DNA of 63,768 nucleotides, counting the filler, from Collodictyon triciliatum (taxonomy: Eukaryota): assembly GCA_043381765.1 (NCBI GenBank). It is 9 parts of 9 records of this genome, joined end to end, with 100 filler letters (N's around TTAATTAATTAA, not from the genome) between each part and the next. Parts side by side here need not be neighbours in the genome. Positions count along the whole stretch, not along the records: positions 22,453 to 29,834 come from JBHJMP010003928.1; 8 more parts are not named here. One strand, given 5' to 3'. Positions 839 to 37,405 of this stretch are shown here, piece after piece. Under the pieces are notes generated by a model that did no database searches, was not told the origin of the DNA, and saw only the letters and a list, made by a program, of their open reading frames with translations. A program made the translations under genes and the position numbers. The stretch's first letter is position 1; each line of letters starts with the position of its first letter.

Positions 839-7218
<6,380 letters not shown>

Positions 7219-7291
7219 CTTTATGTTTAATTACTAGTGTCAGTACTGCATTAAGATATGTAAGAGATATACGACTAGATATATACTTTTA

Positions 7292-14969: not shown

Positions 14970-15058
14970 ATACATACATACATACATACATACATACATA
15001 CATACATACATACATACATACATACATACATACATACATACATACATACATACATACA

Positions 15059-15086
<28 letters not shown>
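14970..15086. repeat. (TACA)n microsatellite
   Basis: Direct tandem repeat. Confidence 0.95.
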
Positions 15087-15089
<3 letters not shown>

Positions 15090-15179
15090 CTTTCATTCCC
15101 AAGTGAACAGAGGGATGAAGAAATTCTAAAATATTGCGGCGTCACTAGGCCTATCTCAGAGTCACATACATCCAAACCA

Positions 15180-17080
15180 CGTTTTTTTTCGTTTTTGTTT
15201 TTTTCGTTTTTTTTTTGTTTTTTTTTGTTTTTTTTGTTTTTTTTATTTTTTTTATTTTTGTTTCGACAATTTTTGAATTGTATTTTACAGTATATTTCAA
15301 GAAAAAAAAGGCCAAGGAAACCGCCTTCGCTTCTCTGACAAAAAATGAGCTGTAGACAAGACAATGGAATACCCTGGATTGTGTGGTTGGAGGTTTTGTG
15401 TTTTGGTGGAGAAAAGAAATAGAAAAAGAAAAAAAAGAAAATAGAAAGGAGAGAAAGTGTTCTTTCACACGCAGACTATTCTACCCGAGGTGAATCCGCT
15501 CCAACGCGATTTCTGGTTGTATTCGAGACTGATAGATGAGCGAATAAAGTTGTCGGGTCGATGAAAGTACGCGCATGACAGTTACTTCTCAAATCGATTT
15601 CGACGAGTCCTTTCAACCATCTATCTCAGACAAGGTTTACATCCTATTTCATTCCACAGGATGAGTCTTTTGAGGAGACAACGGGTCACTTTCCTTACGT
15701 TTCTTGCTGGGCGGCTCTGACAAAAAGCGATACATCGTTGTTTGTCTGGTATTAGTGGAAGTGGCGCTTGACCGTCCCCTGGTTTCGGAACCATACGCAG
15801 CCGGCAGTGGACTTTGCTTAACCGGAGTATGGATACGCGTTTGTGGTTTTAGAAACATACGCTCCTGCTTGCTCGGACTGTCTTTGGTGCGTGGATTTCC
15901 AGGCTTGGATTCGACTTGTGCTGTTTGTTCTTGCTCCTTGGTTCTCGGTGCGACGGGCTGGGGCAGGGGAAACGGACTATCTTTGGTGGGCGCTGGTTCT
16001 TGTGTTGCCTTCGCTTTGGGTTATCCTTTCTGGATATGTAACGAAGACTGCCTTGATACCTCCTATGTTAACCATGTTCACGTCAGTCTGAATGGGTAGT
16101 TTAAGGGGGGATTTCTTTCGGGGTTTGGAGATACACTGCTCTTGGGTCTTGCGATGTGCGGGTTTGTCCGGTGTTGGTGGTGAAGGGCTCGAGTGCGAGG
16201 ATTCTGAAGAGGAACCGAGATTTCCTTCTATCTCATCGTTGTCGCTATCGCTGTATGCGCGTATCTGCTGTGAGTCTTATGGACTCTGTTGTTGCCTGGC
16301 CTTGGCTTCCTTGACCCCGTTGCTGCTTGTCTGCTTGGCAGGTGTATTCTTTTGCGGAGTTTTTACTTGTCGTTCGTTGTTCGCGACTGGCGGATGCTAT
16401 TTGAGGATGCGCTTCGGACACCTTTTACCCATGACTGTAAACTTTGCAGGGAGCTGGTTCTTGTGAAAAAGAAGCTTCACCACAGCCGTGTCTGTGAAGA
16501 AGCCTTTGTCCTTTTTTTATGTCCACGTGGGTCGGTCTGAACGGCTTCAGCTCCTCACGAAGGAGTTGCGGCCACACGTCCAGCGGTAGTTGGTAGAGCA
16601 TCACCAAAGTCTTTGTTGGTTTACTACTGCTGAAGCTGGTTATAATATCGCTCAAAATTACCTGCTTCAGCTCCAGAAGCTTTCGGGCGTTTTCTGCAGT
16701 GCGGAAGGCTATCAGGCGAAGGCCTTCGCTGTCCGGTAAGCGCAGTTGGATGGACTCTTCCCAAAGTTTGTTCGCTTTCAAGAAGGAGGCGAGCGCATCA
16801 GTGAGCCTGCGGGCCTTGTTCTTGTTGTAGACGACTTGCTTGACATCATGCAAAAATACTGTCCGATCAGACAGACTTGCAGGCGGCTTCCTTGCATGGG
16901 TCTTCCTAGACTTACGTGCAACTCGGTTTTGTCTTTATAACAGTGTTGGAACCAGAAGAACTGGCTGCAACTTGCGAAGTTTTTGGCAGGTCGCGGCTTG
17001 TGTTATCCATCGAATGCAGTCAACAGATTTAAGTCTTGTAGCAGAATGATGCTGTCGTTTCCATAAGGCCCTCGTCGCCC
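15180..17080 (-). mobile_element. Degenerate non-autonomous retroelement with a broken gag/ORF1-like reading frame (L1/Tx1-like) and an A-rich 3' tail
   Basis: Intronless GC-richer block. ORF 16425-16853 (LRLIAFRTAENARKLL...TLVMLYQLPLDV...LREELKPF) continues after a frameshift as KDKGFFTDTAVVKL...LPAKFTVMGKRC, which resembles RRM-type ORF1. In-frame stops upstream, a long T-rich tract at about 15180-15262 (poly-A on the minus strand) and a second copy at 21953-22352. Boundaries approximate. Confidence 0.55.
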
Positions 17081-21857: not shown

Positions 21858-22352
21858 TTTTTTCGGTTTTTTTTTTTCGACAGTTTTCTCCAATTCTAAC
21901 CAAATGAAAAACTGTGGAGTGGCTCATGTTGGTATCCAAGACCGATAGAGTAGATACATTGTCATTGGGTCTAGATATGTGCAGGCTTGTCCGGTGTTGG
22001 TGGTGGATGGCTCGAGTGCGAGGATTCTGAAGAGGAACCGAGATTTCCTTCTATCTCATCGTTGTCGCTATCGCTGTATGCGCGTATCTGCTGTGAGTCT
22101 TATAGACTCTGGCGTTGCCTGGCCTTGGCTTCCTTGACCCGGTTGCTGCTTGTCTGCTTGGCGGTTGTATTATTATGCAGAACTTTTACTTGTCGTTCGT
22201 TGTTCGCGGCTGGCGGACGCTATTTGAGGGTGCGCTTTAGACACTTTTTACTCATGACTGTAAACTTTGCAGGGAGCTGGTTCTTGTGAAAAAGAAGCTT
22301 CACCACAGCCGTGTCTGTGAAGAAGCCTTTGTCCTTTTTTTATGTCCACGTG
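21858..22352 (-). mobile_element. Second, internally deleted copy of the contig-3 retroelement (cut by contig end)
   Basis: 21953-22352 aligns by eye with about 16130-16529 at high identity, same orientation. Both copies have a T-tract followed by TTTCGACA at the putative 3' end. Confidence 0.7.
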
Positions 22353-22452
22353 NNNNNNNNNNNNNNNNNNNNNNNNNNNNNNNNNNNNNNNNNNNNTTAA
22401 TTAATTAANNNNNNNNNNNNNNNNNNNNNNNNNNNNNNNNNNNNNNNNNNNN
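22353..22452. other. Artificial contig linker
   Basis: N44-TTAATTAATTAA-N44. Confidence 0.98.
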
Positions 22453-22647
22453 TTCTCCTAGCTCGTTTGATGGAGCTGTGGCTTTTTGGTAAGTTTTTAT
22501 GGTCTGAGTAATCTCTTTGTTCTTTTTTTTAGCTTCTGTTGCTTTTGGCTGGATTTTCGCGAGGTGGGCTTTTTGTTTTTCCGATGCGATGCGTTTAGAC
22601 TTTGGTTTTTTCTCTATGGTATCCATTTCGTTTTCAGAATCGCTCAT
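22453..22647 (-). CDS. Small basic Lys-rich viral-type protein, 3'-truncated
   Basis: MSDSENEMDTIEKKPKSKRIASEKQKAHLAKIQPKATEAKKK resembles the 'KR..SEKQ...L.K' small proteins I recall from PLVs/NCLDVs. Start placed at 22647 rather than 22653 because it fits the shared upstream motif. Confidence 0.6.
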
Positions 22648-22681
22648 ATTCATCCATAGAAAATAATTTCTGAGTAAGACT
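22648..22681. promoter_or_regulatory. Putative bidirectional viral promoter: two back-to-back TCT-N6-GA[A/C]T-ATG motifs
   Basis: Plus strand: aattTCT gagtaa GACT ATG(22682). Minus strand: atttTCT atggat GAAT ATG(22647). The core AGAAA-ATAA-TTTCT (22658-22671) is an inverted repeat. Confidence 0.6.
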
Positions 22682-23446
22682 ATGGATAAAGCGTATTACA
22701 TTCACATATATTCAGCCAACAGATCAAGCGGCAGTATATCAAACTTTGATTTTGCCACGACACAAAACAGATATGTTGCATCCTCAGGTAAAGTTGCACT
22801 TGAAAGTATTCAAATTCCTTATGCCGTACATAATGTTACGAGTGCCAATAATGAATTAGCTTTTCTTTGTAGTGTCAGTGGCAGCCCTGTTTCATACAAT
22901 ATTTCACTTGAGACTGGACTTTTAACAATCCAAGAAATAGTCAGTGACATCCGAACAAAGATTAACGCGGCAACCTTAGGCCAGGGAGCTGCAGCAGAAG
23001 TCACTGTTTCATTTCTGAGCGGCAAGCAAAAGATAGCAATCAAAGCAGCTGGTCCAAATGTTTCATATGAACTGTTTGTAAATTCTAGTACCTGTAGAGA
23101 GCTAATAGGACTGACGGCTAATTTAACATTCAACACTAGTTTTGTTGAGCTGCAGAATATGGTCAATGTCCGTCCGTTTGATTATGTGTATTTAGTCAGC
23201 CCCAATATTCAGTCGTCAAGTTTTGCCAGTAACATAGGCGGCAATGGCATTATCGCAAAGATTCCGCTGAGTGTTGGTTCACGGTACTCGAATTATTACG
23301 AGGTGAATGACAATATCCTAGAGAATCTGATGGACTGCTCGTATATTCCGTTCAGCTGGAATTTCCGGTTGGTCGACAGACTGGGGCGGACAATTAATCA
23401 AATTCAGGACTACAGCTTCACGCTGCGGATTATTCCAGATTTTTAA
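22682..23446 (+). CDS. Minor capsid protein (single jelly-roll penton) of PLV/virophage/Polinton type
   Basis: 254 aa with the characteristic motif order: IYSANRSSGSISNF, VALESIQIPYAVHNVTSANNEL, ISLETG...EIVSDI, ELIGL, YVYLVS, IIAKIP, FRLVDRLGRTIN...DYSFTLRI. Confidence 0.78.
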   Translation: MDKAYYIHIYSANRSSGSISNFDFATTQNRYVASSGKVALESIQIPYAVHNVTSANNELAFLCSVSGSPVSYNISLETGLLTIQEIVSDIRTKINAATLGQGAAAEVTVSFLSGKQKIAIKAAGPNVSYELFVNSSTCRELIGLTANLTFNTSFVELQNMVNVRPFDYVYLVSPNIQSSSFASNIGGNGIIAKIPLSVGSRYSNYYEVNDNILENLMDCSYIPFSWNFRLVDRLGRTINQIQDYSFTLRIIPDF

Positions 23447-23460
23447 ATCTTGCCTAGAAT
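23444..23460 (+). promoter_or_regulatory. Third copy of the TCT-N6-GA[A/C]T-ATG upstream motif
   Basis: taaaTCT tgccta GAAT ATG(23461); TCT again starts exactly 13 nt before the ATG. Confidence 0.6.
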
Positions 23461-25236
23461 ATGGGTTTTTTCATTACAGAAGAAAAGGAACTACCGGAAT
23501 TTTCCAATCAAGACGCAAACAAAATTTTGAAAGTAGATTCAAGTGGGCTTTATTTACAGTGGCTGCAGGAGACGACGGCACCGGCTGAGCTGCCTAGCCA
23601 AGCGGGAAACAATGGCCGACTACTCACTACCAACGGCTCAGTACCATCGTGGACAGATGCGCTATCAGTTAGTACTCTCACTAGTGGAGGAAATATTCAT
23701 TTTTCAAATAATAATAGTCAGTTTTCTCAATTGAGAAGAAATGATAATGTCAATATGATTTTACAAGATGATGGCGTCGGGACCCGGACTATGTCATTTA
23801 ATATTGGAAACCTTAGTAGCACTAGGAGAAGATTGTTTATACAGCAAGGAACATTTACTGTTGAAAATAGCAGATTTCTTGTTTCCGATTCGTCACAAAT
23901 TCACTCAATTGCAGGCATACTAAATCTACCCACAGCTGGCAGTGCATCCGCCCCGACTTTGATGTTTGGAGACAACACAGACACACCAGTTGCGAGTCGA
24001 ACAGGTATTTGGGGCTCAGACAATGTTATTCGTTTTGGAACAGATGGAACGGAAAGAGTTACTATAAGAAATGACGGGCTCACAGTTCCTGATGGCTCTA
24101 CCGCGGCCCCTTCTTATAGTTTCGAAAATTCTACAAATTCTGGTTTAGTGAGAACAGTAGTCGGTACTGATAATGGGATTGGTTTTGTAGCTAATGGAAC
24201 ACAAGTGTGCTCTATAGTAGGTGGTAATATTAGATTGAGCGGAGGTTCGAGTATTCGAAACAACGTATCTAATCCAAGTTCTAATATACAGTTTATTGGA
24301 AGTACAGGAGGCGCAACGGGGTATATACAGTCGACATTTAGTGATTCTAGTACAGGAACCGCAGCAACTTACAGGTTGGGTAATGGCACAAACTGGCCAG
24401 CTACTGAAACGGTTATGAGTAGATTAGTCGGAGGCACTGGAACGAATGAAATATTTGCAACAGAGCACGGGAATACGTATTTTAGATTTTTAGGGGCAAC
24501 AGGTACGGGGGCTACTTTGCCGACACGAGTTCAGAGGGTTGAAATTAATAATTCAGGTATGAGCATAACAGGCAACTTATCAGTTACTGGGACCATTACG
24601 GGAACAATTGAGTTTCCTAGCAACACTATAAACGTTCTAAATGTGCAATTTGGTGGTACGGGAGCAAGCATCACAGGGGCTAATTCCGGTGTAAATTCAT
24701 CGGTTAATATTCAGACTGAAGCACAAAATCGTGTAAATGTAAAATCAAATGATACGGAAATACTTAACAGTTTAAATATCAGTAGAGGAATTATATCACC
24801 TTTTGTAATAATTGACGAACAAACATACACAGTATCAAGAACTACCCCAGCACATGTAATATTAACCAGATCTACTATTTCAGGTGCTCCTAATTCTGAA
24901 TTAACGCTTCCTGCAGCATCTGATGTACCATTAGGATTTGGATTTCGTTTATACATATTTAACTTACCTGGACGTACAATTTTAACAAACAACGCAATTT
25001 TTCAAGCAACACCCGCATCAAACAATCCACTTATTTTTACACCTTCTACAAACATTCGTTATTTTGTGGGTAATGCATACTATGATTTTACATCGAGCAC
25101 AACTCGATATATGGTGTTGGATTTTTACAATATGCGTGAATGGGCACCAAGTAAATCAAGATGGATTATAACTCCAGTAAGTCAATGGATTGAACCATCT
25201 CCATCTACCACTGTATGGCTTGGAAATGACAACTAA
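23461..25236 (+). CDS. Virion fibre / phage tail-fibre-like protein
   Basis: 591 aa, G/S/T/N-rich and beta-prone. Tandem N-terminal motifs ELPEFSNQDANKILKVDSSGLYLQW and ELPSQAGNNGRLLTTNGSVPSW; repeats GSASAPTLMF...TGIW...IRFGTDGTERVTI and GSTAAPSYSF...SGL; C-terminal LTLPAA...G...YIFN. Lies directly downstream of the penton gene. Confidence 0.7.
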   Translation: MGFFITEEKELPEFSNQDANKILKVDSSGLYLQWLQETTAPAELPSQAGNNGRLLTTNGSVPSWTDALSVSTLTSGGNIHFSNNNSQFSQLRRNDNVNMILQDDGVGTRTMSFNIGNLSSTRRRLFIQQGTFTVENSRFLVSDSSQIHSIAGILNLPTAGSASAPTLMFGDNTDTPVASRTGIWGSDNVIRFGTDGTERVTIRNDGLTVPDGSTAAPSYSFENSTNSGLVRTVVGTDNGIGFVANGTQVCSIVGGNIRLSGGSSIRNNVSNPSSNIQFIGSTGGATGYIQSTFSDSSTGTAATYRLGNGTNWPATETVMSRLVGGTGTNEIFATEHGNTYFRFLGATGTGATLPTRVQRVEINNSGMSITGNLSVTGTITGTIEFPSNTINVLNVQFGGTGASITGANSGVNSSVNIQTEAQNRVNVKSNDTEILNSLNISRGIISPFVIIDEQTYTVSRTTPAHVILTRSTISGAPNSELTLPAASDVPLGFGFRLYIFNLPGRTILTNNAIFQATPASNNPLIFTPSTNIRYFVGNAYYDFTSSTTRYMVLDFYNMREWAPSKSRWIITPVSQWIEPSPSTTVWLGNDN

Positions 25237-25265
25237 ACAATTTTTATTATAATAACAATTGTTTA
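25234..25265. terminator. 32-bp near-perfect palindrome spanning the stop codons of two convergent ORFs (bidirectional hairpin terminator / polyadenylation signal)
   Basis: TAAACAATTTTTATTATAATAACAATTGTTTA: 15 of 16 symmetric positions are complementary. It starts at the fibre TAA and ends at the large-ORF TAA. Confidence 0.7.
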
Positions 25266-28200
25266 ATAAATAGCCTGTGAAAGATTCTTCATTGGTGTCC
25301 CGAATATTCGCTCGGTAATTGGCCCGTAAGATTTGCGGCCAAATGCACCAGAGGATATAAAGTATTGAGCGTCCCTTGCCGAACCGAATGCACGTTTCTG
25401 GCCGCCGCCGTGTACGACGTAATTGAGTCCCTCGCGTCTTATAGAATATGCAGATTGGCCCGGAATAATAATGGTACCGAGGTCAGAATTGACGACTCTA
25501 CCCAAGTTTTGCTGAGGTAGAAATGCGACATTTCTTAGTTTCTGGTCCGTGGGGTCTCCGTATTGTGGACTGTATTTCAGAGGCCAATAACCTGCAGCTC
25601 GCGCTTGTTTCAGTTGGGCGTCTAAATCATTTCTAGTGTCTTCATCAATAGTATTGTTATAATAAAATAAAACAAGTTCTCTAGCTGCCTCGGGTTCTAT
25701 GGACAAATCCACCCATTGAATACCTAATTCATTCATTTTTGTTTCAAATGTTTCTATATCGTTTAATACAGAACCAGTAAAATTAATAGGTAGTCCAGTA
25801 TTTAATTGGCCGTTTCGATTTCTCAAAGATATTTGTTTTGAAACTTCTTTTGCGAACTTCGTCTGATTTCCGAAATTGCGTTCAATGACTGGGCGCATAA
25901 AATTATTATTAAAAATGGGATTGAAGTTGAAGCCTCCAAAACCTCCGAAGCCGCCTCCGCCTCCGCCTCCGCCTCCGCCAGGTGGTCCAGGTGGTCCAGG
26001 TGGGCCTCCGCCAAGGCTTGGAGCTCTTCTAGGTACCCGGACTGGGGTACCAATACCGACATTTCCAGTTCCAAGGCTTACACCTCGTCGTGGAGCAGGA
26101 CGTGGGCTATCGATTGGATTAAACATTGTATTGGGATTCATATTATTACCACCGAAAATATTTTGACCAATAACATTTGTTGCAGCCTGGAAAATATTAG
26201 CACCCACATTAAAAACGTTGCCTGCAAGTGCCCTGACTGCTGCCATTCTACCAGGAATAACAGGGGAGGGAGCAATTTGTTGAACTGGACTTTGAGCAGG
26301 CACCATCGCACGTGGTGGGGACCCAGTAGGACTATCAGGTAATATCATAATATTTGGATTGGGTTGTGACGCAGCTGGCAGTGCTGGAAAATCTTGAAAC
26401 TGCCAGGGACCTAGTGCTATTGGACTTGGAATTCCTTGAGATAAAGACCTAGGTGTACTAACACGTCTTCTTGTTAGAGAACTTGGACGAGAACTAGGTT
26501 GAGACCTCACTATCATTTGTGAAGGCGTATCGGGTATATCATCTTCAGGGTCGTTAGTTGGAATTGCAGGGTACGCCGCATTATAATAAAATGTGGCTGT
26601 ATCAGCAATTTGGTCTCGTTGATATTTTAATTGCTGAGCAAGATTTTGTAAATTTTCAATTGTTTGCGCTTGTTCTATAACAATAGGATTTTCTAAATTT
26701 AATAATGCATTTAAATTATCGACTTGGTTTCTTAATTCTTGTATTTCAAACTCTTGTGTTTCAGGTGCTTGCAATAACAGTTGCAAATTATGAAGGTGAG
26801 TTTCCAATTCCTCTATCTTACGTAATTTTATTTCTTCAAACATTAATTTTCTTTTATTATTAAATTCACTTTGATATTTAATAAGATTTTCTCTTCGTCT
26901 TTCTAATTCTTGAGTGTTTAAACTGGTTCGTCTTGATGCAGGTGTGCCTGGAGGTGGTTTTGGTGTTCTTGGAGTCCGTGTTGTCTGTGACAATTGAGAT
27001 AATTGAATGGATTCTGTATTAAATCCTACTGAATAATTTCCAGGTTTAATTCTATTCAATGCATTGCGCTGTTCTTCCATTCTAGCCTGCTCATTAGCCA
27101 TTTGCACACCAAGTTCTTCAAGCTTTTTTTTATACATTTCTTTGTCTTGTAAGAGTCCTGTTGCTAGGTCAGACGCAATATTAACTGTATTCTGTAGCTC
27201 AGAAATATACTCATTTTGTTCACCCAATGCAATATTTAAAGTATCGATTTGGTTATATGCATTATCTAATTTATTTTGGACCAACTCTAGATGTTCGGCT
27301 AATTTTTTTAATAATTCATCTGCTGCTTGATTAGTAGGTGTAATATCTATTTCGGTAATTACATCTTGGGTTGTTAAATTTGTTTGTACATTGGTTAGTT
27401 TATCCTGTTGATTTTGTTCCCTAATTCTATTAATTTTCTCGCTCATTTGTGCAAGTTTTTCAGTTATATTTCCGATACTTACCGTTCCGCTTGTGTCAGG
27501 TATAGACGACCTGTTTGGTGTATTATCAAAAGGCGATGTAAATAATTGTCTTTTAGGAACTGATGCTGGAGGCAACATATCGCCTGTTACTTTACTACCG
27601 AATCCAGTGCGTTGTGTGTATGTTGGTGTTCCTTGAATACTCGGAGCTTGTGTAAAACTCTGATTGGCTAAAAATGACATTCCACTTATATTGGATTCGT
27701 TTAATACAGGATTACTAATAGTAGATTCATTAGCCATATTTTCGGTCTGGGCTTGTGTAAATGAAATACCTGATTGATTCAGTTGTTGTAAACTCTGTTC
27801 TGCAAAACTTTGAGCAGGAGTTAGAATTCGCGAGCCTATATATGTAAGTGTTGATTGGTCTGGGTCAAATACTGATGCGCTACCCAAAACTTTTGGTCCA
27901 AATAAAATACTAGCACTTCTCTGTGCATTTTGTACATAATTTGCTTGGTTAAAAATTTGCGAGCGTTCAAAAGTAGTAAACAAATCATCCATAGACTGCT
28001 CTAGCATATTACGGGAACTACTGGCATTTAATTGCACCATCGAAACAATATTTTTTGCGAGTAAGTTACTAAAATTTATATTATCAAATTCATTAAGTCT
28101 ATCGTCAAGTGAATCATTGACAATTAATTCAATATCTTGTTGTTCACGAGCTATTTGCGCTTTGTATTCGTCATTTAACATATCTGCTACGGTCAATGCT

Positions 28201-29834
28201 CTTATTTCCGTTTGAACAACTTGCGCTCTGGCTTGTTTTACATCAAATATATCCTGTCTGAATTCACTTATTTCTCTTACTACTTCTTGGTCAGATTGAG
28301 GTAATGAATGAAAGAATTTTTCATACCCAGCATCTGATTGTTGGTCAGAATTTTTTATTATAAAATTTTTTATACTCATTTGCATTGTTTTTGCTACTTG
28401 GTCTGCTACTTCCAAAAGTATCCCTTGATTTGTTGCTTGTACTAAGTCTCTTATAATTATTTGTTCTTCTTCTTGATTAATAACTGGAATTAATTGTGAA
28501 ACGATGGCATCATCGACTCTAGTAACAAGTGCTTGATTTTGAACAACTGTTTCGTCAGTTTCATCCTGCGGAATTTTTTGTAAATATCTTTTTTGATATT
28601 CTTGGAGAATTTCTTTTTGTAATTGCAGCCGTCTTACTTCCTCACCTTTTTTTAATTTTTCTGCCAAGGCCTCTTCAGCCTGTCTCTTTTTTTCAAGAGC
28701 TTCTTGTCTTTTCTTTTCTTTTCTTTCTTCAATCTCTTTTAATTGCTTTTCTCTTTTTGCATTAAATAATTCAGCCCGGCTTCGACGCTCCTCTGCTGCT
28801 TGCTCTTGTTCTGCTTTTTTCTCAAGTTCTGCAATAAATCTATAGTATGCGATGTTCCAACATATATTATATAAAATTTCATCTTCATCTAAATCTTCGT
28901 ATGGTTGGCCTATTTGAAAAGCATACAAATATTCTCTTATTTCTTCTCCAAATTCATCGTCTAAATATTGCATAAATTCAAATTCCTTATCATCACCAAA
29001 TGTCTTGGGTATGTTTTCTTTATAACTAAATCCCCTGTGCTTAAACCATTCTTTCAGTGCAAGATTCATAGCGGTATAAATAACTGTGTTAATAGGACCG
29101 CCACGAGAATCTCTTTTCTGCAAATAAGGTATATCCAGAGGGGACTTTTTTTTTCCTATTTCACTTTTAATTTTCAATGTTAATTCTGTCCAGTGTTCTT
29201 GTCCTTCTTCACTTTCCATTACTTCATTAAATTGTGCAAAATACGCTTCCAGTCTACCAAATGTTGTATCCAGGTCAAAACTTTCTTCTTGTTCTTGTTC
29301 TTGTTCTTGTTCTTGTTCTTGTTCTTGTTCTTCTTCTTCTTCTTCAACTAATACTGGTGAACTTTTTTGTTGAAGTTTAATTTTAGTAATTTCTTCTATT
29401 GATTGTCTACGGGGGCTATTAAACACTGGATCCATCACTTCTTGTTTAGTAGGTTGAGTTTGACTTTGGCTTGCACTTGGAGCTTCTTCGTCATCATCTT
29501 CTTCTTGTTCTTCTTCTACATCTTCAACATCTGCTGAAGTTTTATTGCGTAGTATGTCACTAAAATTTTCAAACTCACTTAATTCTTTTCTTAATAAATT
29601 TACGCCAACTTTTGTATAAAGGTCGACAATATAAGATATTCTAAATCTTTCATCATGAAATTTTAATTCTTTTCTTTCCATAGCCCTAACAAATGTTAAA
29701 GTTTTTTTAGTATCTACCTTTTTTATATCGTATGCACGGGCTATGTCAAATAATTTTTTATAAATATTTATATGTTCATCAAAATCTAAATTTTGCAAAT
29801 GTGCAGCATAAGCCTCTTTAGTGTATTTTACCAA
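25263..29834 (-). CDS. Large (>1523 aa) intronless hypothetical protein, 5'-truncated; acidic, coiled-coil, S/T/P-rich and Gly/Pro-rich segments
   Basis: Uninterrupted 4.57-kb ORF that begins at the contig edge (TTG, not a real start). Contains an (EQ)n tract, E/K/Q coiled coils and PPGPPGPPGGGGGGGGG. No catalytic motif recognised. Confidence 0.85.
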   Translation of the reverse strand: MVKYTKEAYAAHLQNLDFDEHINIYKKLFDIARAYDIKKVDTKKTLTFVRAMERKELKFHDERFRISYIVDLYTKVGVNLLRKELSEFENFSDILRNKTSADVEDVEEEQEEDDDEEAPSASQSQTQPTKQEVMDPVFNSPRRQSIEEITKIKLQQKSSPVLVEEEEEEQEQEQEQEQEQEQEESFDLDTTFGRLEAYFAQFNEVMESEEGQEHWTELTLKIKSEIGKKKSPLDIPYLQKRDSRGGPINTVIYTAMNLALKEWFKHRGFSYKENIPKTFGDDKEFEFMQYLDDEFGEEIREYLYAFQIGQPYEDLDEDEILYNICWNIAYYRFIAELEKKAEQEQAAEERRSRAELFNAKREKQLKEIEERKEKKRQEALEKKRQAEEALAEKLKKGEEVRRLQLQKEILQEYQKRYLQKIPQDETDETVVQNQALVTRVDDAIVSQLIPVINQEEEQIIIRDLVQATNQGILLEVADQVAKTMQMSIKNFIIKNSDQQSDAGYEKFFHSLPQSDQEVVREISEFRQDIFDVKQARAQVVQTEIRALTVADMLNDEYKAQIAREQQDIELIVNDSLDDRLNEFDNINFSNLLAKNIVSMVQLNASSSRNMLEQSMDDLFTTFERSQIFNQANYVQNAQRSASILFGPKVLGSASVFDPDQSTLTYIGSRILTPAQSFAEQSLQQLNQSGISFTQAQTENMANESTISNPVLNESNISGMSFLANQSFTQAPSIQGTPTYTQRTGFGSKVTGDMLPPASVPKRQLFTSPFDNTPNRSSIPDTSGTVSIGNITEKLAQMSEKINRIREQNQQDKLTNVQTNLTTQDVITEIDITPTNQAADELLKKLAEHLELVQNKLDNAYNQIDTLNIALGEQNEYISELQNTVNIASDLATGLLQDKEMYKKKLEELGVQMANEQARMEEQRNALNRIKPGNYSVGFNTESIQLSQLSQTTRTPRTPKPPPGTPASRRTSLNTQELERRRENLIKYQSEFNNKRKLMFEEIKLRKIEELETHLHNLQLLLQAPETQEFEIQELRNQVDNLNALLNLENPIVIEQAQTIENLQNLAQQLKYQRDQIADTATFYYNAAYPAIPTNDPEDDIPDTPSQMIVRSQPSSRPSSLTRRRVSTPRSLSQGIPSPIALGPWQFQDFPALPAASQPNPNIMILPDSPTGSPPRAMVPAQSPVQQIAPSPVIPGRMAAVRALAGNVFNVGANIFQAATNVIGQNIFGGNNMNPNTMFNPIDSPRPAPRRGVSLGTGNVGIGTPVRVPRRAPSLGGGPPGPPGPPGGGGGGGGGGFGGFGGFNFNPIFNNNFMRPVIERNFGNQTKFAKEVSKQISLRNRNGQLNTGLPINFTGSVLNDIETFETKMNELGIQWVDLSIEPEAARELVLFYYNNTIDEDTRNDLDAQLKQARAAGYWPLKYSPQYGDPTDQKLRNVAFLPQQNLGRVVNSDLGTIIIPGQSAYSIRREGLNYVVHGGGQKRAFGSARDAQYFISSGAFGRKSYGPITERIFGTPMKNLSQAIY

Positions 29835-29934
29835 NNNNNNNNNNNNNNNNNNNNNNNNNNNNNNNNNNNNNNNNNNNNTTAATTAATTAANNNNNNNNNN
29901 NNNNNNNNNNNNNNNNNNNNNNNNNNNNNNNNNN
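29835..29934. other. Artificial contig linker
   Basis: N44-TTAATTAATTAA-N44. Confidence 0.98.
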
Positions 29935-30066: not shown

Positions 30067-31695
30067 CGCTTAAGAATAGCGACAGCAGCATTCTCCCGTT
30101 GAGAACTAACATTCTTTCCTGCGAATTCCTCTTCCTCTGGCGCGAACAGTTCAGAGCGCCCGAGCCCCACGTTGCTCGTGAGTACCACATTCCTGCAGTC
30201 GAACCACAACGCGTACCCGAGCCTGAACCCGTCGTCATTCCTGAGCCCGTGCCTGAGCCTGAGCCCGAGCCCGAGCCACTGCCAATCATCGACATATCTG
30301 GTATTTTGATCGAAGGAAACTCTTTGGAGGTCACTGGAAATATTCCACCAAGTGCCACATACCAATGGTAAACATGTGAATGCTTTCGAGATATACTGAA
30401 CCATTTACTGCCTATCTTTGCTATTTTTTTTTGAAGTGTTGTTTTTCTACCGCTTGTCTTCTTACATCATTCCTGGATGCCATTTGATTGCATGTTTCAT
30501 TCATCGGTCTGGTACACCATAGGTATGTTGTGGCTGGCTCGAAGTGGAATCCTATTCCTGGAGCAAATCTGCCATCCTTCTACCCCACAAACAGAGAGGC
30601 CGGCCAATACATCGGAGTCACTGTCTCCGTGGGTGATCGCTCAGTCTCAGCTCAAACGGCATCTCCTATTCAACATTGTAACTACCTAACAATACTGTGT
30701 TATTTGATATCTGGAATAGGCCATGAGACACTGCCAATCATATGAAAGAATTCAGCGAGACTCATTGAAAAACTTTTATCATTAGCTTCTCTATCTCTTT
30801 TCAAGATGGATACCGATGTACATGCCCTTATTTTTTTCTCTTGAAATCAGATATGAACATTAACATTACCGGCGTGCCCAAGGAAGGCTCAGTCTTGAAA
30901 GTTGAAGGAGTTTACCCGCCTGGGACATCTATCCAATGGTTGGTGTATTCAGAAGACATTCACCCTTGTTTTATTGTCTATTACTACCTCTTTAACAGAT
31001 AGCAGCTTCCACACAAAATTCTAGCTATCTTTAGGAATTGAAAATGTGGAAGAAAAAAGAATATAAATTCGTTTTTTTTTTTGGAACTTAATTGATTGAC
31101 ATGTGTATTAACGTTGTAATTTAATCAAGAGTTTGTTTTGATCGCCTATGACAGGTTTGTTTCTCGTGAGGGACGGTTTGACCCTATTTTGGATGCCACG
31201 AAGGATACTTACATCCCAACCAGATACGAAGCCGGCTCACCTCTCGTTGTTGTTGCTGCGTATCAAGGACAACAAACTCAGGCAGTTTCTGCAGTGATTG
31301 AAAAAAGTATACCAACCATATAGCTATTTTTCTTATTCTATACCTCTATTCAATTTTGCTTTCATCGCCTTCAAAAAAACATTTAAATTACCAAAGATGC
31401 CGACCTGGCAGACGCCAACTGCGTATATAATAATTTACTCAACCTAATACCCCTTCGCTTGTCCTCTTAAAGCCGAGGTCAATGTCAAGTCTTTCAGGGT
31501 AAATGGTGGACCATATCACACAAACACTTTGTCGTTCAAATCCTCCTACTTTGGACCCAGCGAAGGCAATTCCATCTATCAGTGGCTCCATGCTGATAGC
31601 GACGACAACTTCAAGCCTATTCCCGGTTTGTCTTTAGGCCCCAAAAAATCCAGTCTAATGACATTTGTTGGTGTTGGTGTTGGTGTTGGTGTTGG

Positions 31696-31743
<48 letters not shown>

Positions 31744-33022
31744 ATTTTTCTCTGTTTATTCTTCCAATCACCTGAGGGACATGAAACATTAACTTAAAGA
31801 TCTGATTTGTTGCATACTTACCCAGGTGAGAACAAGAGCTCTTTTACTCCATCTGCTGATGACCTGCATGCAAATATTGCCCTGGACTACACTCCCATCT
31901 CAGTGACAGGCGAAAGAGCACAAACATTCCGCATCCATGTCGATTCTGCCAACCTTGCCATCGGTACAGCCAAGTCGATATGATATTGATGATCTAGAGC
32001 ATTATTTTTGGCCACCATTTATTTTAATCATCATGTTATTCTTGCTGTCCGCAGACCCGTATGTTGCCTCTACTGTGGAAGGAGTTGTCAAGACCGGTCA
32101 GGGTATCTTCGAGGTCATTCTATATCCAAATATTGCATTTCCTTCATGCTATCTCGTACCCACAGTCGCGTACATCATGCGATTAAGTTATCATGAATTT
32201 TTTTCTATGAATGAATTAATTAGTCAAAAGATTTAAAACCTCGCCATCTCAGATATGCTGCGTTGATGACATTTCTCGATTCTTAGGTTGGATATATCCC
32301 TGACTCCAGAAAGGCTGATAAGAAGCCTAACGCACCCTCTTCGGCCGACGCAGACGCACCCATTCCTTACTTTATCGATGCGAGTAACAGCAAGGTCACC
32401 ATCAAACGGCAGGACGGGCAAGTCCTCGCCAAAGCCTCGTACAGCGTAGATTTTGGCGTAAGTTGCATGCTTTTGCTCACAAACGCACCTTGCCTACGCA
32501 AAGTTGCACGTGATTTTCCTCCTGGGTTTTGTACGGATAATCGACTTATGCGTATGTTTCACCACTATATGTAGATCTATCTTTCTCATAATGACAATCG
32601 TGCGTTCCGCCTCGTCCTGAGCAAGACTGAGGGATACGACTTTGTTGCAGCCGACCACAAGTACAGAGATATCATCGCATTGTCTCTGCGCTCTTTCCTG
32701 AGTATTACTGTGGTATGTCAAGCTTCTGCACAGCTCCCTTTTTTGTTCTATTATCTTTTCGTTTCGTTCCTTTTTCTTTTTCTTTTTCTTTTTTTCTTTT
32801 TTTCTTTTTTTCTTTTTTTCTTTTTTTCTTTTTTTCTTTTTCTTTTGTTTTCTTTTGCTTTCTTTTGCTTTCTTTTCTCAACCGCCATGCTGCCGAAGAA
32901 ATATTTACTCACATCCACCATAAATCCAGCTACTCAAGGGCAAGATTGGAGTCCATCGTGTCCAATCACTCTCTGAGCTGAGAAACAAGCAGAACGAAGC
33001 AAAGAAGAAGCTTGGCCAGTAA
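30067..33022 (+). CDS. 5'-truncated multi-exon gene with three AIR9(A9)-like Ig domains and a C-terminal PH-like domain (AIR9/SCAB-like cytoskeletal protein)
   Basis: Repeats ISGILIEGNSLEV...YQW|Y...PIPGANLPSFYPTNREAGQYIGVTV, ITGVPKEGSVLKV...IQW|F...PILDATKDTYIPTRYEAGSPLVV and YFGPSEGNSIYQW...PIPG|ENKSSFTPSADDLHANIALDYTP. Then DPYVASTVEGVVKTGQGIFEV and FVAADHKYRDIIALSLRSF. Inferred last exon ends ...KKKLGQ*. Confidence 0.65.
31665..31743. repeat. (GTTGGT)n-(GTT)n intronic microsatellite
   Basis: Direct tandem repeat. Confidence 0.9.
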
Positions 33023-34159: not shown

Positions 34160-36058
34160 ATGAACAAAGACCCGAATGATGCATCATCTATGGATATTGG
34201 TCCTATTTCAACTAGCGTCATTCCGTCGATTGATCGAGGGGCTGTAAATTGCGAGTCATGTATGAGGGATACCAGACTTATTCCAGGAACCTGCAACAGC
34301 GAGGAAATCAATCATCCATCTGGCTGCGAGGTAAGAACAAAGGAAACCATAGAGGACTTGGTGGCTGTTATGGAGAGTAACTCACAACACAACACATCGA
34401 GCACTTGGAGAATACACCAGTGTATTGGGTGTGGCAGCAAAGAATCGAAGAATGACGGCATCTCTGACCCGCAATCCAGAAGTCAAAAGCATGAACCAAA
34501 TAAAACTTTGCATAGCAGTCTCTGTCAACCCAATATAATCACGTATGAGAGAAATCACATTTCATTCGTCAGGCCCCCAACTGCACCAAGTCTCACTGAG
34601 GCACTTCGGTATGGCATCGAAACTGTAAAAAAAATGTTTCTGTTTTCGGACATCTTGGGATTCCCGTCAATAGTAGTTATTACCCTCATTTTTGGCTCAA
34701 CATTTTTATTTGAAATCAACAACAAAACTATGACTTATTACGTCTCCTTTTACTACCCCTTGTTTGATTTTGTGCTCTATGGTATGATTTCGTCTAATTT
34801 CATTTTACTTTTTGGGAAAAAGAAACTACTTACTTTCATGAAAAAAATAACTATTCCGTTGGCGATGTTGCATTCCGTCGCGCACGCAATAAGAGCAGCC
34901 CTGGGATATCCTTACCTTTCAGCCGTGTACTTTCCAATTTTCTTGGCCAACTATTTCTTGGTCTTGAAAAAAGTGATACCGGATGGAGTTGCCGATAGCT
35001 TGGAGGATATTCACCAGGATGGCGCCAATCATAGATACAATTTACTTTCTGTTGATGGGACACCCATGGCTTTGTTCAAAGGATTGATTCCGTTCTTTAT
35101 AATCTACTACCTATGCGTTTTTTACCTTGTGGGCTTCTTTATGGTCTCTGGATTGGAAATTCGGTTGTTAATCAGAATGTTGATTATCCCGTTAATAACT
35201 AATATAGCTGACTCATATCAAAGTGGATTGATAATATTCAAAACCAAAGAATTTATGAAGTATAGAATGGTTTTGGGAAGTATATATAACTCAATATCAT
35301 TGTGCATTATGCGACTCATGATTACGAGCTCCCCAAGCATATACGATACTGCAATCATGGCCTCATCTGCGGCTGTACTTGAAGTCTTTCTTCGAGTATC
35401 ATCAATTTTGAGAAACGTTTATGCCATACGCACCTATAGATATTTTCAGAAGAATGCAATAATGCCGTGCTTTTCAAAAACAAAGGTACTTATTTTTAAT
35501 CATATCTCTCCAACTGAAAACGAAGAACGGAGCACAGCGCAACATAATCAAGCGATAGATGGGTCAGAGTCAGGCACAACGGGCATCGGGTTTCAAGCAG
35601 AAAATATATTTGAGATAAACGCATGCAAATGGAGCAAAAAAGGCATTGCAACTGTCATTCGACAACTGAATAGCCATGCCTCGGACGTCGAATACATCAC
35701 TGAGTTTCATCGAAATAGAACCTATTTTATGTCCATGTTTGAAATTCAATCAACCATAATTATACCTTTAGTTTTGTTTCTAAGCAAACCAATTCATAAA
35801 TACATTGCATTTCATCCATTATTTACAGTGCAACAGCTATGCTACAGTATCCTAGTTCAGCTTACAATCGAACTACTGACGCAATGTGTATCATTTTCGT
35901 TGGAATGCTACATCTATGATATCAAGATTCAATTCAAGGCATCATACTCCTACTATGTAAGGCCGCGTGTACTCACTCAGTTTACATTAAATGCCCTAGC
36001 AGTCTGTTTCTTATCAGTTGCTTCATTTCAAATTGGAGCTGAATCGTGGCCGGAATAA
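34160..36058 (+). CDS. Intronless multipass membrane protein of unknown function (632 aa)
   Basis: 1.9-kb ORF with a hydrophilic N-terminal ~160 aa, then roughly 10-11 hydrophobic segments and two larger loops. No family motif recognised. Confidence 0.75.
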   Translation: MNKDPNDASSMDIGPISTSVIPSIDRGAVNCESCMRDTRLIPGTCNSEEINHPSGCEVRTKETIEDLVAVMESNSQHNTSSTWRIHQCIGCGSKESKNDGISDPQSRSQKHEPNKTLHSSLCQPNIITYERNHISFVRPPTAPSLTEALRYGIETVKKMFLFSDILGFPSIVVITLIFGSTFLFEINNKTMTYYVSFYYPLFDFVLYGMISSNFILLFGKKKLLTFMKKITIPLAMLHSVAHAIRAALGYPYLSAVYFPIFLANYFLVLKKVIPDGVADSLEDIHQDGANHRYNLLSVDGTPMALFKGLIPFFIIYYLCVFYLVGFFMVSGLEIRLLIRMLIIPLITNIADSYQSGLIIFKTKEFMKYRMVLGSIYNSISLCIMRLMITSSPSIYDTAIMASSAAVLEVFLRVSSILRNVYAIRTYRYFQKNAIMPCFSKTKVLIFNHISPTENEERSTAQHNQAIDGSESGTTGIGFQAENIFEINACKWSKKGIATVIRQLNSHASDVEYITEFHRNRTYFMSMFEIQSTIIIPLVLFLSKPIHKYIAFHPLFTVQQLCYSILVQLTIELLTQCVSFSLECYIYDIKIQFKASYSYYVRPRVLTQFTLNALAVCFLSVASFQIGAESWPE

Positions 36059-37305: not shown

Positions 37306-37405
37306 NNNNNNNNNNNNNNNNNNNNNNNNNNNNNNNNNNNNNNNNNNNNTTAATTAATTAANNNNNNNNNNNNNNNNNNNNNNNNNNNNNNNNNNNNNNN
37401 NNNNN
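37306..37405. other. Artificial contig linker
   Basis: N44-TTAATTAATTAA-N44. Confidence 0.98.

What the first reader, a model, noticed from the sequence alone, without database searches (positions are those of the whole stretch)
22453..29834. Polinton-like virus / virophage-like contig inside a eukaryote assembly
Seen: a switch from intron-rich host genes to four intronless, densely packed ORFs. Recognised by motif: a single jelly-roll penton followed by a fibre-like gene. Known: PLVs and virophages are frequently endogenous in protist genomes. The frames are intact, which suggests a recent or active element. The penton + fibre + >1500-aa unknown ORF combination does not match a lineage I can name. 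Major capsid protein, packaging ATPase, polymerase and integrase are not in this contig.
Basis: partly seen in the sequence, partly recalled or inferred. Interest (0 to 1): 0.8.

Follow-up and report, generated by a model that had tools for sequence, protein, structure and literature searches.

The report
Polinton-like virus capsid-module contig fragment
This 7.4-kb contig is a piece of a small DNA virus of microbial eukaryotes (a polinton-like virus), carrying its capsid-vertex protein, a fibre-like gene and a huge fast-evolving gene; such viruses are known, and whether this one is inserted in the sequenced organism's genome cannot be told.

Summary
The window is a chain of ~7.4-kb contigs joined by N44-TTAATTAATTAA-N44 linkers. 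The finding is exactly one contig, 22453-29834, 97% covered by four intact frames.

The 254-aa ORF is a penton protein. Its AlphaFold model has pLDDT 89. The top 30 structural matches are all viral pentons: PBCV-1 Z 18.1, mavirus 13.3, adenovirus 12.8. A family profile hits PBCV-1 P1v1 at E 8.5e-23.

Fourteen metagenome loci carry relatives. The three long ones share one gene order: rve integrase, DUF5906 helicase protein, A32 ATPase, small basic protein, penton, fibre, giant ORF, small ORF, ~530-aa capsid candidate. No protease, pPolB or phage hallmark was found. It is therefore a fragment of a ~17-kb polinton-like virus.

The fibre has a conserved N-terminal module and a swapped distal part. 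The giant ORF is conserved only in its last ~125-205 residues and matches no known fold.

Both contig ends lie inside viral genes, so integration is untested. Near-identical pieces occur in environmental metagenomes.

Verdict: a new member of a known kind, of moderate interest.

The parts
22453..29834 (.). One assembly contig (7382 nt): a fragment of a polinton-like virus genome, cut inside viral genes at both ends
   Evidence: Linkers N44-TTAATTAATTAA-N44 on both sides. ORF cover is 0.97. It is 87-89% nt identical to metagenome loci L001-L004 over the left 1.2 kb.
22453..22653 (-). N-terminal 67 codons of a small lysine-rich protein (115-118 aa in relatives), cut by the contig edge; function unknown
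   Evidence: 87.5% identical to the first 64 aa of the 115-aa ORF of L004, 80% to that of L003 and 65% to that of L014. No Pfam family for the L003 homologue.
22658..22671 (.). Near-palindromic motif AGAAAATAATTTCT in the 28-nt divergent spacer (22654-22681) between the small gene and the penton gene; candidate bidirectional promoter element (inferred)
   Evidence: The motif or a one/two-base variant lies 10-14 nt upstream of the penton start in 13 of 13 sequences examined: the window plus 12 loci. Similar A/T-run + TTTCT words lie upstream of the small gene, the giant ORF and the capsid candidate in L003, L004 and L014.
22682..23446 (+). Penton (minor capsid, vertex) protein, 254 aa: jelly-roll base plus an inserted upper domain
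   Evidence: AF2 pLDDT 89.2, pTM 0.78. VIA-align: PBCV-1 P1v1 Z 18.1, P1 Z 15.6, mavirus penton Z 13.3, adenovirus penton base Z 12.8, Sputnik Z 12.0; the top 30 rows are all pentons. Foldseek: mavirus penton E 9e-11; BFVD top hits TM 0.74-0.76, including Tetraselmis viridis virus S1. The 71-sequence profile hits 8h2i_bG at E 8.5e-23. dN/dS is 0.13-0.18 against 4 relatives.
23461..25236 (+). Fibre-like protein, 591 aa, G/S/T/N-rich. Conserved N-terminal module (about the first 45-65 aa, 23461-23655) and a mosaic, exchangeable distal part
   Evidence: The N-terminal 65 aa are 91% identical to L004, while the rest is unrelated or 34-62% identical in patches. The N-terminal alignment of 9 sequences has 20 invariant columns. 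A metagenome contig keeps both flanks but carries 1505 other letters in place of 23570-25249 (table 5). No Pfam, PHROG, PDB or phage-record match, so 'fibre' is an inference.
25234..25265 (.). 32-nt palindrome TAAACAATT-N14-AATTGTTTA running from the fibre stop codon to the giant-ORF stop codon; candidate two-way transcript-end hairpin (inferred)
   Evidence: The stem is invariant or a G-T wobble in 5 of 5 aligned loci, including distant L014. RNA folds give -6.8 and -8.3 kcal/mol, z -3.9 and -3.3, with 0 of 200 shuffles as good.
25263..29834 (-). Giant ORF, at least 1523 aa, N-terminus open at the contig edge. Acidic, coiled-coil-like, P/S/T-rich and G-rich segments, no membrane segment. Only the C-terminal part is conserved
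   Evidence: Translation, composition. Eight homologues of 980-1523 aa match the C-terminal query. Column identity is 5-17% over residues 1-1250 and 40-77% over 1401-1523. Same position in L003, L004 and L014.
25266..25880 (-). Conserved C-terminal domain of the giant ORF (residues 1319-1523, ending ...KNLSQAIY); fold and function unknown
   Evidence: 52% identity to P0098 and 44% to P0102 over about 205-218 aa. The AF2 model reaches only pLDDT 60. Best structural match Z 4.6. No Atlas hit.

Best explanation
The contig is the central part of the genome of a polinton-like virus (PLV) of about 17 kb. [quoted passage not shown]

Shown:
- The 254-aa protein is a penton, the protein that forms the pentamers at the twelve capsid vertices.
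- In related metagenome contigs the same block sits between an A32-type packaging ATPase, a DUF5906/VapE-like helicase protein and an rve integrase on one side, and a small ORF plus a ~530-aa conserved protein on the other. That last protein is the likely double-jelly-roll major capsid protein.
- The penton gene is under purifying selection.

Inferred:
- The 591-aa protein is a vertex fibre. Its highly conserved first ~45-65 residues would anchor it to the capsid. Its distal part is exchanged by recombination, which would set host-cell recognition.
- The giant ORF is a virion-associated protein held by its conserved C-terminal ~125-205 residues. Its long acidic/coiled-coil/disordered body diverges beyond alignment between strains. 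It may be a second surface filament or a protein delivered with the DNA.
- The small gene and the penton gene are transcribed outward from a shared palindromic promoter word. The fibre and giant-ORF transcripts end at a shared hairpin that contains both stop codons.
- Integration (rve integrase) and replication functions lie on the part of the genome this contig lacks.

The contig does not show whether this copy is integrated in the assembled organism or comes from a free virus or a co-sampled protist.
For: Penton:
- AF2 model pLDDT 89.2.
- VIA-align Z 18.1 (rmsd 4.3, 245 aligned) to PBCV-1 P1v1, 13.3 to the mavirus penton, 12.8 to the adenovirus penton base. The top 30 rows are all pentons, followed at Z 8.5 by an engineered binder derived from adenovirus (ADDobody) and then unrelated proteins at Z 7.3 and below.
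- Foldseek gives 42 PDB matches at E<=0.001, led by mavirus, Sputnik and adenovirus pentons. BFVD top hits have TM 0.74-0.76, including Tetraselmis viridis virus S1.
- The 71-sequence profile hits P1v1 at E 8.5e-23, P1 at 3.8e-9 and the EhV-201 penton at 1.4e-7.

Family:
- 10 proteins at 93-37% identity.
- 88 representatives at E<=1e-3.
- 14 confirmed metagenome loci out of 99 pattern matches.

Synteny and hallmark genes in L003, L004 and L014:
- rve 45.9 bits (cut-off 32.6).
- DUF5906 61 and 50.2 bits (cut-off 27.6).
- Pox_A32 37.4 and 38.1 bits (cut-off 22.8).
- No protease, pPolB, terminase or HK97 family among the 19 proteins scanned.

Genome size: the longest contigs of the penton, capsid-candidate and giant-ORF clusters recur at 16905-17215 nt.

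Capsid candidate (lead-level evidence only):
- 39 homologues.
- 50-58% identical to the L014 protein in the main group of the alignment, and 37-39% in the six most distant members.
- Nearest Atlas clusters are Preplasmiviricota, some carrying Sputnik_MCP or Capsid_N families.
- DJR-like_dom in 2 of 37 members at E 0.012.

Selection: penton dN/dS 0.13-0.18 in 4 of 4 comparisons.

Fibre modularity.

Regulatory words.

Literature passages read: PLVs lack the maturation protease, rarely carry RVE or pPolB, and typically carry a helicase-primase (PMC7805220). PLVs of cryptophytes carry rve integrase, primase-helicase fusions, fibre proteins and proteins over 1000 aa (PMC12220804).
Against: - No capsid protein, ATPase, replication gene or integrase lies in the window contig or in any other contig of the window. 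The PLV assignment therefore rests on relatives whose penton is 91-92% (L003, L004) or 36% (L014) identical.
- The capsid candidate has no significant match to any solved structure (0 hits at E<=10) or to Pfam at curated thresholds.
- The fibre has no detectable homology to any known fibre.
- The giant ORF has no family, and its C-terminal model is of low confidence.
- No terminal inverted repeats were seen at the ends of L003, L004 or L014, so genome ends and completeness are unproven.
- The two scans of the viral contig collection found no relative.
Confidence: 0.88

Rival explanations
1. It is an endogenous copy: a PLV integrated, recently and intact, into the nuclear genome of the organism that was assembled.
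For: Relatives encode an rve integrase. PLVs are often integrated in protist genomes (PMC10120064, abstract in the listing; PMC7805220 passages). The contig is part of an assembly whose other contigs carry eukaryotic domain fragments. The frames are intact.
Against: There is no host junction: both ends break inside viral genes. In two laid runs the sequence continues past the left end (loose ends at 22459 in X1 and X6, the same 30 letters in both). In X2, a contig that matches the last 478 nt with 1 difference runs 2277 nt past the right end. Pieces 90-99% alike lie in environmental metagenomes of four studies. The other contigs of the window look plant-like (LRRNT_2, zf-RVT, AIR9 A9), a host group for which my one paper search (5 papers held all three terms, 4 listed) showed no PLV report in the listed titles and abstracts. 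Purifying selection fits a replicating virus as well.
Confidence: 0.3
2. It is a virophage (a Sputnik/mavirus-like virus that depends on a giant virus) rather than a PLV.
For: The best Foldseek matches among solved structures are mavirus and Sputnik pentons. One nearest Atlas cluster of the capsid candidate carries Sputnik_MCP_1st/MCP_V20_C in 29% of its members. Mavirus also has an rve integrase (PMC7805220 passage).
Against: No cysteine protease was found among the 19 proteins of L003 and L014. Virophage capsid Pfam families matched 0 of 37 members of the capsid-candidate family at E<=1. By sequence profile and by Z-score the penton is nearer to chlorovirus P1v1 than to virophage pentons. 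The replication protein is of the DUF5906 helicase kind, not pPolB. Dependence on a giant virus is a lifestyle that some PLVs share, and sequence cannot exclude it.
Confidence: 0.08
3. It is a fragment of a giant virus (Nucleocytoviricota) genome.
For: The strongest sequence and structure matches of the penton are to PBCV-1 P1v1/P1 and to EhV-201. Many BFVD matches are giant-virus proteins.
Against: Related contigs top out at about 17.2 kb in several independent sources. They hold a whole small-virus gene set with an integrase within 15-16 kb. No Capsid_NCLDV family was found among the 19 proteins of L003/L014 scanned at E<=0.01 or among the 37 capsid candidates scanned at E<=1.
Confidence: 0.03
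4. It is a bacterial or archaeal virus contaminant (tailed phage or a tectivirus-like phage).
For: The fibre has a phage-fibre-like composition. The assembly is not clean: the GC content of the nine contigs ranges from 0.31 to 0.45.
Against: PHROGs gave nothing for three of the four proteins scanned, and one match at E 0.043 to a family of unknown function for the penton. The fibre has no match in 50,697 phage records. No terminase or HK97 capsid family appeared among the 19 proteins of L003/L014. Every strong penton match is to a eukaryotic virus. The rve integrase and Pox_A32 ATPase are typical of eukaryotic polinton-like elements.
Confidence: 0.01

Closest known systems
Polinton-like viruses of aquatic protists (e.g. 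the Tetraselmis viridis virus S1 group; cryptophyte PLVs of PMC12220804; lake PLVs of PMC7805220)
   Same: Small genome of about 17 kb. Penton, A32 ATPase and a capsid candidate. A helicase-type replication protein instead of pPolB. No protease found. An rve integrase, as in cryptophyte PLV clusters C2 and C3. A fibre gene and a protein over 1000 aa. The penton model matches a TVS1 protein at TM 0.74.
   Different: The capsid candidate, fibre and giant ORF match no named family. The fibre lacks the Peptidase_S74, collagen or laminin domains reported for PLV fibres (against the passages). The giant ORF is conserved only at its C-terminus. Two scans of the viral contig collection found no member. 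Whether the published PLV catalogues already hold this lineage could not be checked, because supplements are closed.
Chlorovirus PBCV-1 penton proteins P1 and P1v1 (PDB 6ncl, 8h2i)
   Same: Closest by sequence profile (E 8.5e-23 and 3.8e-9) and by structure (Z 18.1 and 15.6). Jelly roll plus inserted domain.
   Different: PBCV-1 is a giant virus of more than 300 kb (recalled). P1v1 is 530 aa against 254 aa here. Identity is only 14-22% in the structural alignment.
Virophage pentons (mavirus 6g41/6g42, Sputnik 3j26)
   Same: Same fold over the whole length: Z 13.3 and 12.0, 242-243 residues aligned; Foldseek E 9e-11.
   Different: 8-16% identity. The relatives here lack the virophage protease and the virophage-type capsid families.
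Adenovirus penton base with its fibre (e.g. 1x9t)
   Same: Penton fold: Z 12.1-12.8. The gene next to the penton has a conserved N-terminus and a variable distal part, like a fibre tail and knob. This is a functional analogy.
   Different: No sequence similarity of the fibre to adenovirus fibres. Attachment of this fibre to this penton is not shown.

Membership tests
Polinton-like viruses (PLV) | Single-jelly-roll penton (minor capsid protein) | tested here: met
   a high-confidence model, with penton matches only at the top (Z 18.1-11.4).
Polinton-like viruses (PLV) | Double-jelly-roll major capsid protein | tested here: inconclusive
   Not in the window. Relatives carry a conserved ~530-aa candidate. 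It has no PDB sequence hit. DJR-like_dom matched 2 of 37 members at E 0.012. Atlas neighbours are Preplasmiviricota capsid-like clusters. It was not folded.
Polinton-like viruses (PLV) | FtsK/HerA-type (A32-like) packaging ATPase | tested here: met
   Found in relatives only: Pox_A32 at 37.4 and 38.1 bits (cut-off 22.8) in L003 and L014, two genes upstream of the penton. It is absent from the window contig because the contig ends before it.
Polinton-like viruses (PLV) | Small genome (about 14-40 kb) without pPolB and without maturation protease; usually a helicase-primase | tested here: met
   Longest contigs are 16905-17215 nt. The 19 proteins of L003/L014 hold DUF5906/VapE-like helicase proteins and no pPolB or protease family at E<=0.01. 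The definition is taken from PMC7805220 and PMC12220804 passages. A primase domain was not shown.
Virophages (Sputnik/mavirus kind) | Cysteine maturation protease as a core gene | tested here: not met
   No protease family among the 19 proteins of L003 and L014 at E<=0.01, apart from a chance-level Peptidase_C15 match at E 0.0028, below its cut-off. The contigs may lack up to about 1-2 kb of the genome.
Virophages (Sputnik/mavirus kind) | Virophage-type major capsid protein | tested here: inconclusive
   Sputnik_MCP_1st and MCP_V20_C matched 0 of 37 capsid-candidate proteins at E<=1. One Atlas neighbour cluster carries them in 29% of its members.
Polintons/Mavericks | Protein-primed family B DNA polymerase together with rve integrase | tested here: not met
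   The rve integrase is present in L003 (45.9 bits). No polymerase family was found in L003 or L014.
Adenovirus-type vertex complex (penton base + fibre) | Fibre N-terminal tail binds the penton base | not testable with these tools
   Only indirect signs exist: gene adjacency, and an N-terminal module more conserved than the penton itself (64% against 36% identity between L003 and L014; alignment).
Tailed phages (Caudoviricetes) | Terminase large subunit and HK97-fold capsid | tested here: not met
   No such family in the window's ORFs or in the 19 proteins of the relatives.

The most novel reading that the evidence does not exclude
The contig represents an undescribed, widespread freshwater lineage of polinton-like viruses of about 17 kb, with an rve integrase and a DUF5906 helicase protein. 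Its hallmark would be a 1200-1500-aa, mostly disordered or coiled-coil virion protein that is rebuilt almost completely between strains with 91-93% identical pentons. That protein is held by a conserved C-terminal domain of no known fold. This would be a new kind of hypervariable host-interaction or genome-delivery protein in small eukaryotic DNA viruses. A bolder version: the virus belongs to the plant-like organism of the assembly, which would extend PLVs to the streptophyte line.
Probability: 0.2. Interest if true: 0.6.

Novelty: new member of a known kind. Interest (0 to 1): 0.35.

Why it matters
Polinton-like viruses are abundant in lakes and seas, often sit in protist genomes, and can act against giant viruses. 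Most of their genes are nevertheless unnamed.

This fragment and its relatives give a clean example of how the entry module of such a virus is built:
- a well-conserved vertex protein;
- a fibre whose anchor is kept while its distal part is swapped;
- a giant gene conserved only at its tail;
- two conserved non-coding words, a divergent promoter-like palindrome and a shared terminator-like hairpin, which could be tested directly.

For genome annotation the practical lesson is that this contig should not be read as a host locus. The window is a chain of unlinked contigs, and nothing ties the virus to the assembled organism.

Tried and rejected
- Pfam and PHROGs on the three large ORFs gave no usable family.
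- Fibre: phmmer against PDB gave 0 hits at E<=1. tblastn against 50,697 phage records gave no match.
- Giant ORF C-terminal domain: the protein Atlas gave no usable hit. The AF2 model on a 12-row alignment reached only pLDDT 60.1. VIA-align against 48,161 chains gave a best Z of 4.6 and none at 5 or above, all generic helical matches. There is no fold assignment, and this does not show that the fold is new.
- Complex prediction of the penton with the first 70 residues of the fibre returned 'no answer' (score 0.00, controls not run, alignments not used). This is neither support nor evidence against binding.
- Scans of the viral contig collection with the penton alignment (43 pattern matches, none confirmed) and with the capsid-candidate alignment (75 pattern matches, none confirmed) found no relative.
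- No terminal inverted repeats at the ends of L003, L004 or L014.
- Capsid candidate: the profile against PDB gave 0 hits at E<=10, and Pfam gave nothing at curated level.
- Cluster look-up of 10 proteins returned only 'hypothetical protein' or no name, and no accessions.
- Sequencing runs: no RNA holder was listed. No run holds more than 0.48 of the sampled words.
- No whole genome is held for the window, so the assembly could not be searched for the missing genes.
- A paper search for six public contig or sample prefixes of the loci found 0 papers. Supplements are closed, so published PLV catalogues could not be checked for these contigs.
- One count of structure pairs failed on a mistyped structure length. 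I did not repeat it, because the stem is invariant and could show no covariation.
- I considered comparing composition or codon usage with the other contigs to judge host linkage. I dropped it as too weak on 7-kb pieces of mixed coding content.
Full report
**What the window is**

The window is not one stretch of a chromosome. A 100-nt block, N44-TTAATTAATTAA-N44, occurs eight times (cores at 7431, 14914, 22397, 29879, 37350, 44818, 52283 and 59751), against 0.03 expected by chance. These blocks cut the window into nine pieces of 7386, 7383, 7383, 7382, 7371, 7368, 7365, 7368 and 3962 nt. They are assembly contigs laid end to end, roughly by length.

The finding's coordinates match the fourth contig, 22453-29834. 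Nothing to its left or right is physically linked to it. No whole genome is held for the window.

**The observation**

The contig holds four frames with no internal stops:
- a minus-strand gene cut by the left edge (22453-22653);
- a 254-aa ORF (22682-23446, +);
- a 591-aa ORF (23461-25236, +);
- a minus-strand ORF of at least 1523 aa (25263-29834), whose N-terminus runs into the right edge.

Stop-to-stop frames of 100 aa or more cover 0.97 of this contig, against 0.09-0.75 of the other eight.

The other contigs carry scattered domain fragments: a protein kinase C-terminal half, LRR, LRRNT_2, zf-RVT, AIR9 A9, Kelch, Ctr and Metallophos. This looks eukaryotic and rather plant-like. I did not show introns directly.

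**The 254-aa ORF is a penton**

Pfam and PHROGs gave nothing usable. Sequence searches found a family instead:
- 10 proteins at 93-37% identity, all 254-263 aa, in the word-indexed search;
- 88 representatives at E<=1e-3 in the exhaustive search.

A 71-sequence alignment (A2) used as a profile hits three solved pentons:
- chlorovirus PBCV-1 P1v1, E 8.5e-23;
- PBCV-1 P1, E 3.8e-9;
- the EhV-201 penton, E 1.4e-7.

The AlphaFold model built on A2 has mean pLDDT 89.2 and pTM 0.78. Structural comparisons agree:
- Foldseek against the PDB is led by mavirus (E 9e-11), Sputnik and adenovirus pentons.
- Foldseek against viral models gives TM 0.74-0.76 at the top, including a Tetraselmis viridis virus S1 protein.
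- VIA-align gives Z 18.1 for P1v1, 15.6 for P1, 13.3 for mavirus, 12.8 for the adenovirus penton base and 12.0 for Sputnik. The first 30 rows are all pentons. Row 31 (Z 8.5) is an engineered binder derived from adenovirus (ADDobody), and unrelated proteins follow at Z 7.3 and below.

**Relatives supply the missing genome**

A metagenome scan returned 14 loci that encode relatives. The window contig is 87-89% nt identical to L001-L004 over its left 1.2 kb.

The three long loci are L003 (14.8 kb), L004 (12.9 kb) and L014 (16.4 kb; penton only 36% identical). They share one order:

integrase - small ORF - ~800-aa replication protein - ATPase - 112-118-aa basic protein - penton - fibre - giant ORF - 134-139-aa ORF - ~530-aa protein

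Pfam scores on these proteins:

| Family | Bits | Curated cut-off |
|---|---|---|
| rve integrase (L003) | 45.9 | 32.6 |
| DUF5906, with a weak VapE-like match | 61 and 50.2 | 27.6 |
| Pox_A32 | 37.4 and 38.1 | 22.8 |

No protease, protein-primed polymerase, terminase or HK97 capsid family appeared among the 19 proteins scanned.

The window's left-edge gene is the N-terminus of the 115-118-aa protein (80-87% identity). None of the relatives' other genes is found anywhere else in the window.

The longest contigs of the penton, capsid-candidate and giant-ORF clusters recur at 16905, 17173, 17175 and 17215 nt across sources. I read this as a genome of about 17.2 kb. No terminal inverted repeats were seen on the three loci.

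**The capsid candidate**

The ~530-aa protein is the only candidate for a major capsid protein by size and conservation. In the 37-sequence alignment the main group is 50-58% identical to the L014 protein and the six most distant members are 37-39% identical; 39 homologues were found in all.

The evidence that it is a double jelly roll is only lead-level:
- no PDB sequence hit;
- DJR-like_dom in 2 of 37 members at E 0.012;
- language-model neighbours that are viral, mostly Preplasmiviricota, some with Sputnik_MCP or Capsid_N families.

**Which kind of virus**

Passages of PMC7805220 describe PLVs as similar to polintons in size, lacking the maturation protease, rarely carrying pPolB or RVE genes, and typically carrying a helicase-primase. 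Passages of PMC12220804 report rve integrases, primase-helicase fusions, fibre proteins and proteins over 1000 aa in cryptophyte PLVs.

The gene set here fits that description. It fails the virophage test (no protease) and the polinton test (no pPolB). I therefore file it as a PLV with an rve integrase.

**The fibre-like gene**

It has no detectable homologue among families, solved structures or phage records. Its label rests on three things:
- its place directly after the penton, with a 14-nt spacer;
- its G/S/T/N-rich sequence;
- its modularity.

The first ~45-65 residues are strongly conserved. They are 91% identical to L004, and 64% identical between L003 and L014, whose pentons share only 36%. 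Twenty columns are invariant across 9 sequences. The rest is a mosaic.

In one laid run, a 4549-nt contig keeps 22454-23570 and 25249-25941 but carries 1505 other letters in place of the 1678 between them. This is a natural swap of the distal fibre. It is bounded by the N-terminal module on one side and the downstream palindrome on the other. I infer a capsid anchor plus an exchangeable host-recognition part.

**The giant ORF**

Eight homologues of 980-1523 aa match its C-terminus. Alignment with seven full-length relatives gives 5-17% column identity over residues 1-1250 and 40-77% over 1401-1523. Pairwise, the last ~205-218 residues are 52% identical to P0098 and 44% to P0102, all ending ...KNLSQAIY.

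The body is built as follows:
- acidic in residues 101-200 (net charge -27);
- coiled-coil-like over about 316 residues, by a crude heptad count of my own;
- P/S/T-rich in residues 1101-1200;
- G-rich in residues 1201-1300;
- without a membrane-like segment.

Viruses with 91% identical pentons (L004) have bodies that cannot be aligned. A closer strain in one run covers 25986-29277 with 97 differences and 6 gaps.

No family, Atlas neighbour or fold could be assigned to the C-terminal domain. My reading is a virion protein anchored by its C-terminus, with a fast-changing exposed or delivered body. This is an inference.

**Non-coding words**

The 26-nt spacer between the convergent fibre and giant-ORF genes, together with both stop codons, forms a 32-nt palindrome (25234-25265, TAAACAATT-N14-AATTGTTTA). 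Its stem is kept in 5 of 5 loci, including L014. It folds better than all 200 shuffles on both strands (z -3.9 and -3.3).

The 28-nt divergent spacer between the small gene and the penton gene holds the near-palindrome AGAAAATAATTTCT (22658-22671). It or a close variant is present in 13 of 13 sequences, and related A/T-run + TTTCT words stand before other structural genes.

I read these as a two-way promoter element and a two-way transcript-end hairpin. Neither is shown.

**Active or decaying; integrated or free**

Penton dN/dS against four relatives is 0.13-0.18, so the gene has been kept functional.

The run search found no holder of more than 0.48 of the sampled words. Twenty rows from 10 studies hold parts. 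The four runs laid are labelled freshwater, sediment and subsurface metagenome, plus one unlabelled. They hold contigs 90-99% alike, some running past both ends of the window contig. One 2802-nt contig matches the last 478 nt with one difference and continues for 2277 nt. A capsid-candidate protein (P0116) is recorded on a contig of that same length. That agreement is a lead, not proof.

Both ends of the window contig are thus assembly breaks within a virus that also occurs in the environment. Integration into the assembled organism is neither shown nor excluded. I put it at about 0.3.

**Novelty and score**

PLVs, their pentons, fibres, long proteins and their presence in eukaryote assemblies are all in print. 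This is a new member of a known kind, possibly of an unnamed PLV group:
- no member was found in the viral contig collection held here;
- no informative name appears on any cluster;
- no paper in the searched library cites the contig prefixes.

The supplementary catalogues of the PLV papers could not be opened, so prior listing cannot be excluded. Interest is moderate, 0.35. The interesting parts are the hypervariable giant gene with its conserved tail and the two conserved regulatory palindromes.

Noticed in passing
window 7387-7486, 14870-14969, 22353-22452, 29835-29934, 37306-37405, 44774-44873, 52239-52338, 59707-59806: Eight artificial linkers (N44-TTAATTAATTAA-N44, stops in all six frames) join nine unrelated contigs of about 7.4 kb. 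Any first-stage reading that relies on adjacency across these points is void.
   Followed up: yes
window contigs 1-22352 and 29935-63768: The other contigs carry fragmentary, rather plant-like domains: LRRNT_2 at 54589-55098, LRR at 57871-59130, a kinase half at 39431-39901, zf-RVT at 36340-36942, AIR9 A9 at 31448-31789 and Kelch at 44440-44772. Their GC content ranges from 0.31 to 0.45, so the assembly may be mixed.
   Followed up: partly
window 34160-36058 (+) and 60696-62084 (-): Two long frames without any Pfam family: a 632-aa protein with many hydrophobic segments, and a 462-aa Q/S/P/T-rich low-complexity protein in a GC-rich stretch (0.54 at 61001-62000).
   Followed up: no
window 16129-16428 and 21952-22251: A 300-nt direct repeat, 91% identical, within the third contig (family D5). 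An (ACAT)n microsatellite lies at 15000-15091.
   Followed up: no
L003 4394-4550 and 5922-6078: A 157-nt direct repeat, 99% identical, brackets the ATPase and the 118-aa genes of this relative. It lengthens the spacer before the penton gene, and a 21-nt inverted repeat (5908-5928 / 6071-6091) lies inside it. It may be a small inserted or duplicated element.
   Followed up: no
L014 5325-5524: A 65-nt inverted repeat, 89% complementary with 70 nt between the arms, lies in the long spacer between the helicase gene and the 148-aa gene. It may be an origin or a regulatory region.
   Followed up: no
window 22454-24676 in run X4: In one subsurface-metagenome run, contigs 90-95% like the penton and the fibre N-part carry word depths of about 2,400-14,000, while the rest of the stretch lies at about 3-14, apart from two bins at about 1,960 (25171-25417) and 119 (29370-29616). 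Depth of contigs is no copy number, but a relative of this virus seems very abundant there.
   Followed up: no
window 29268-29360 and 29475-29540: Short tandem TTCTTG/TTC repeats encode the E/Q-rich acidic runs near the N-terminus of the giant ORF. The laid contigs were cut at these repeats, which may be why the assembly broke nearby.
   Followed up: no
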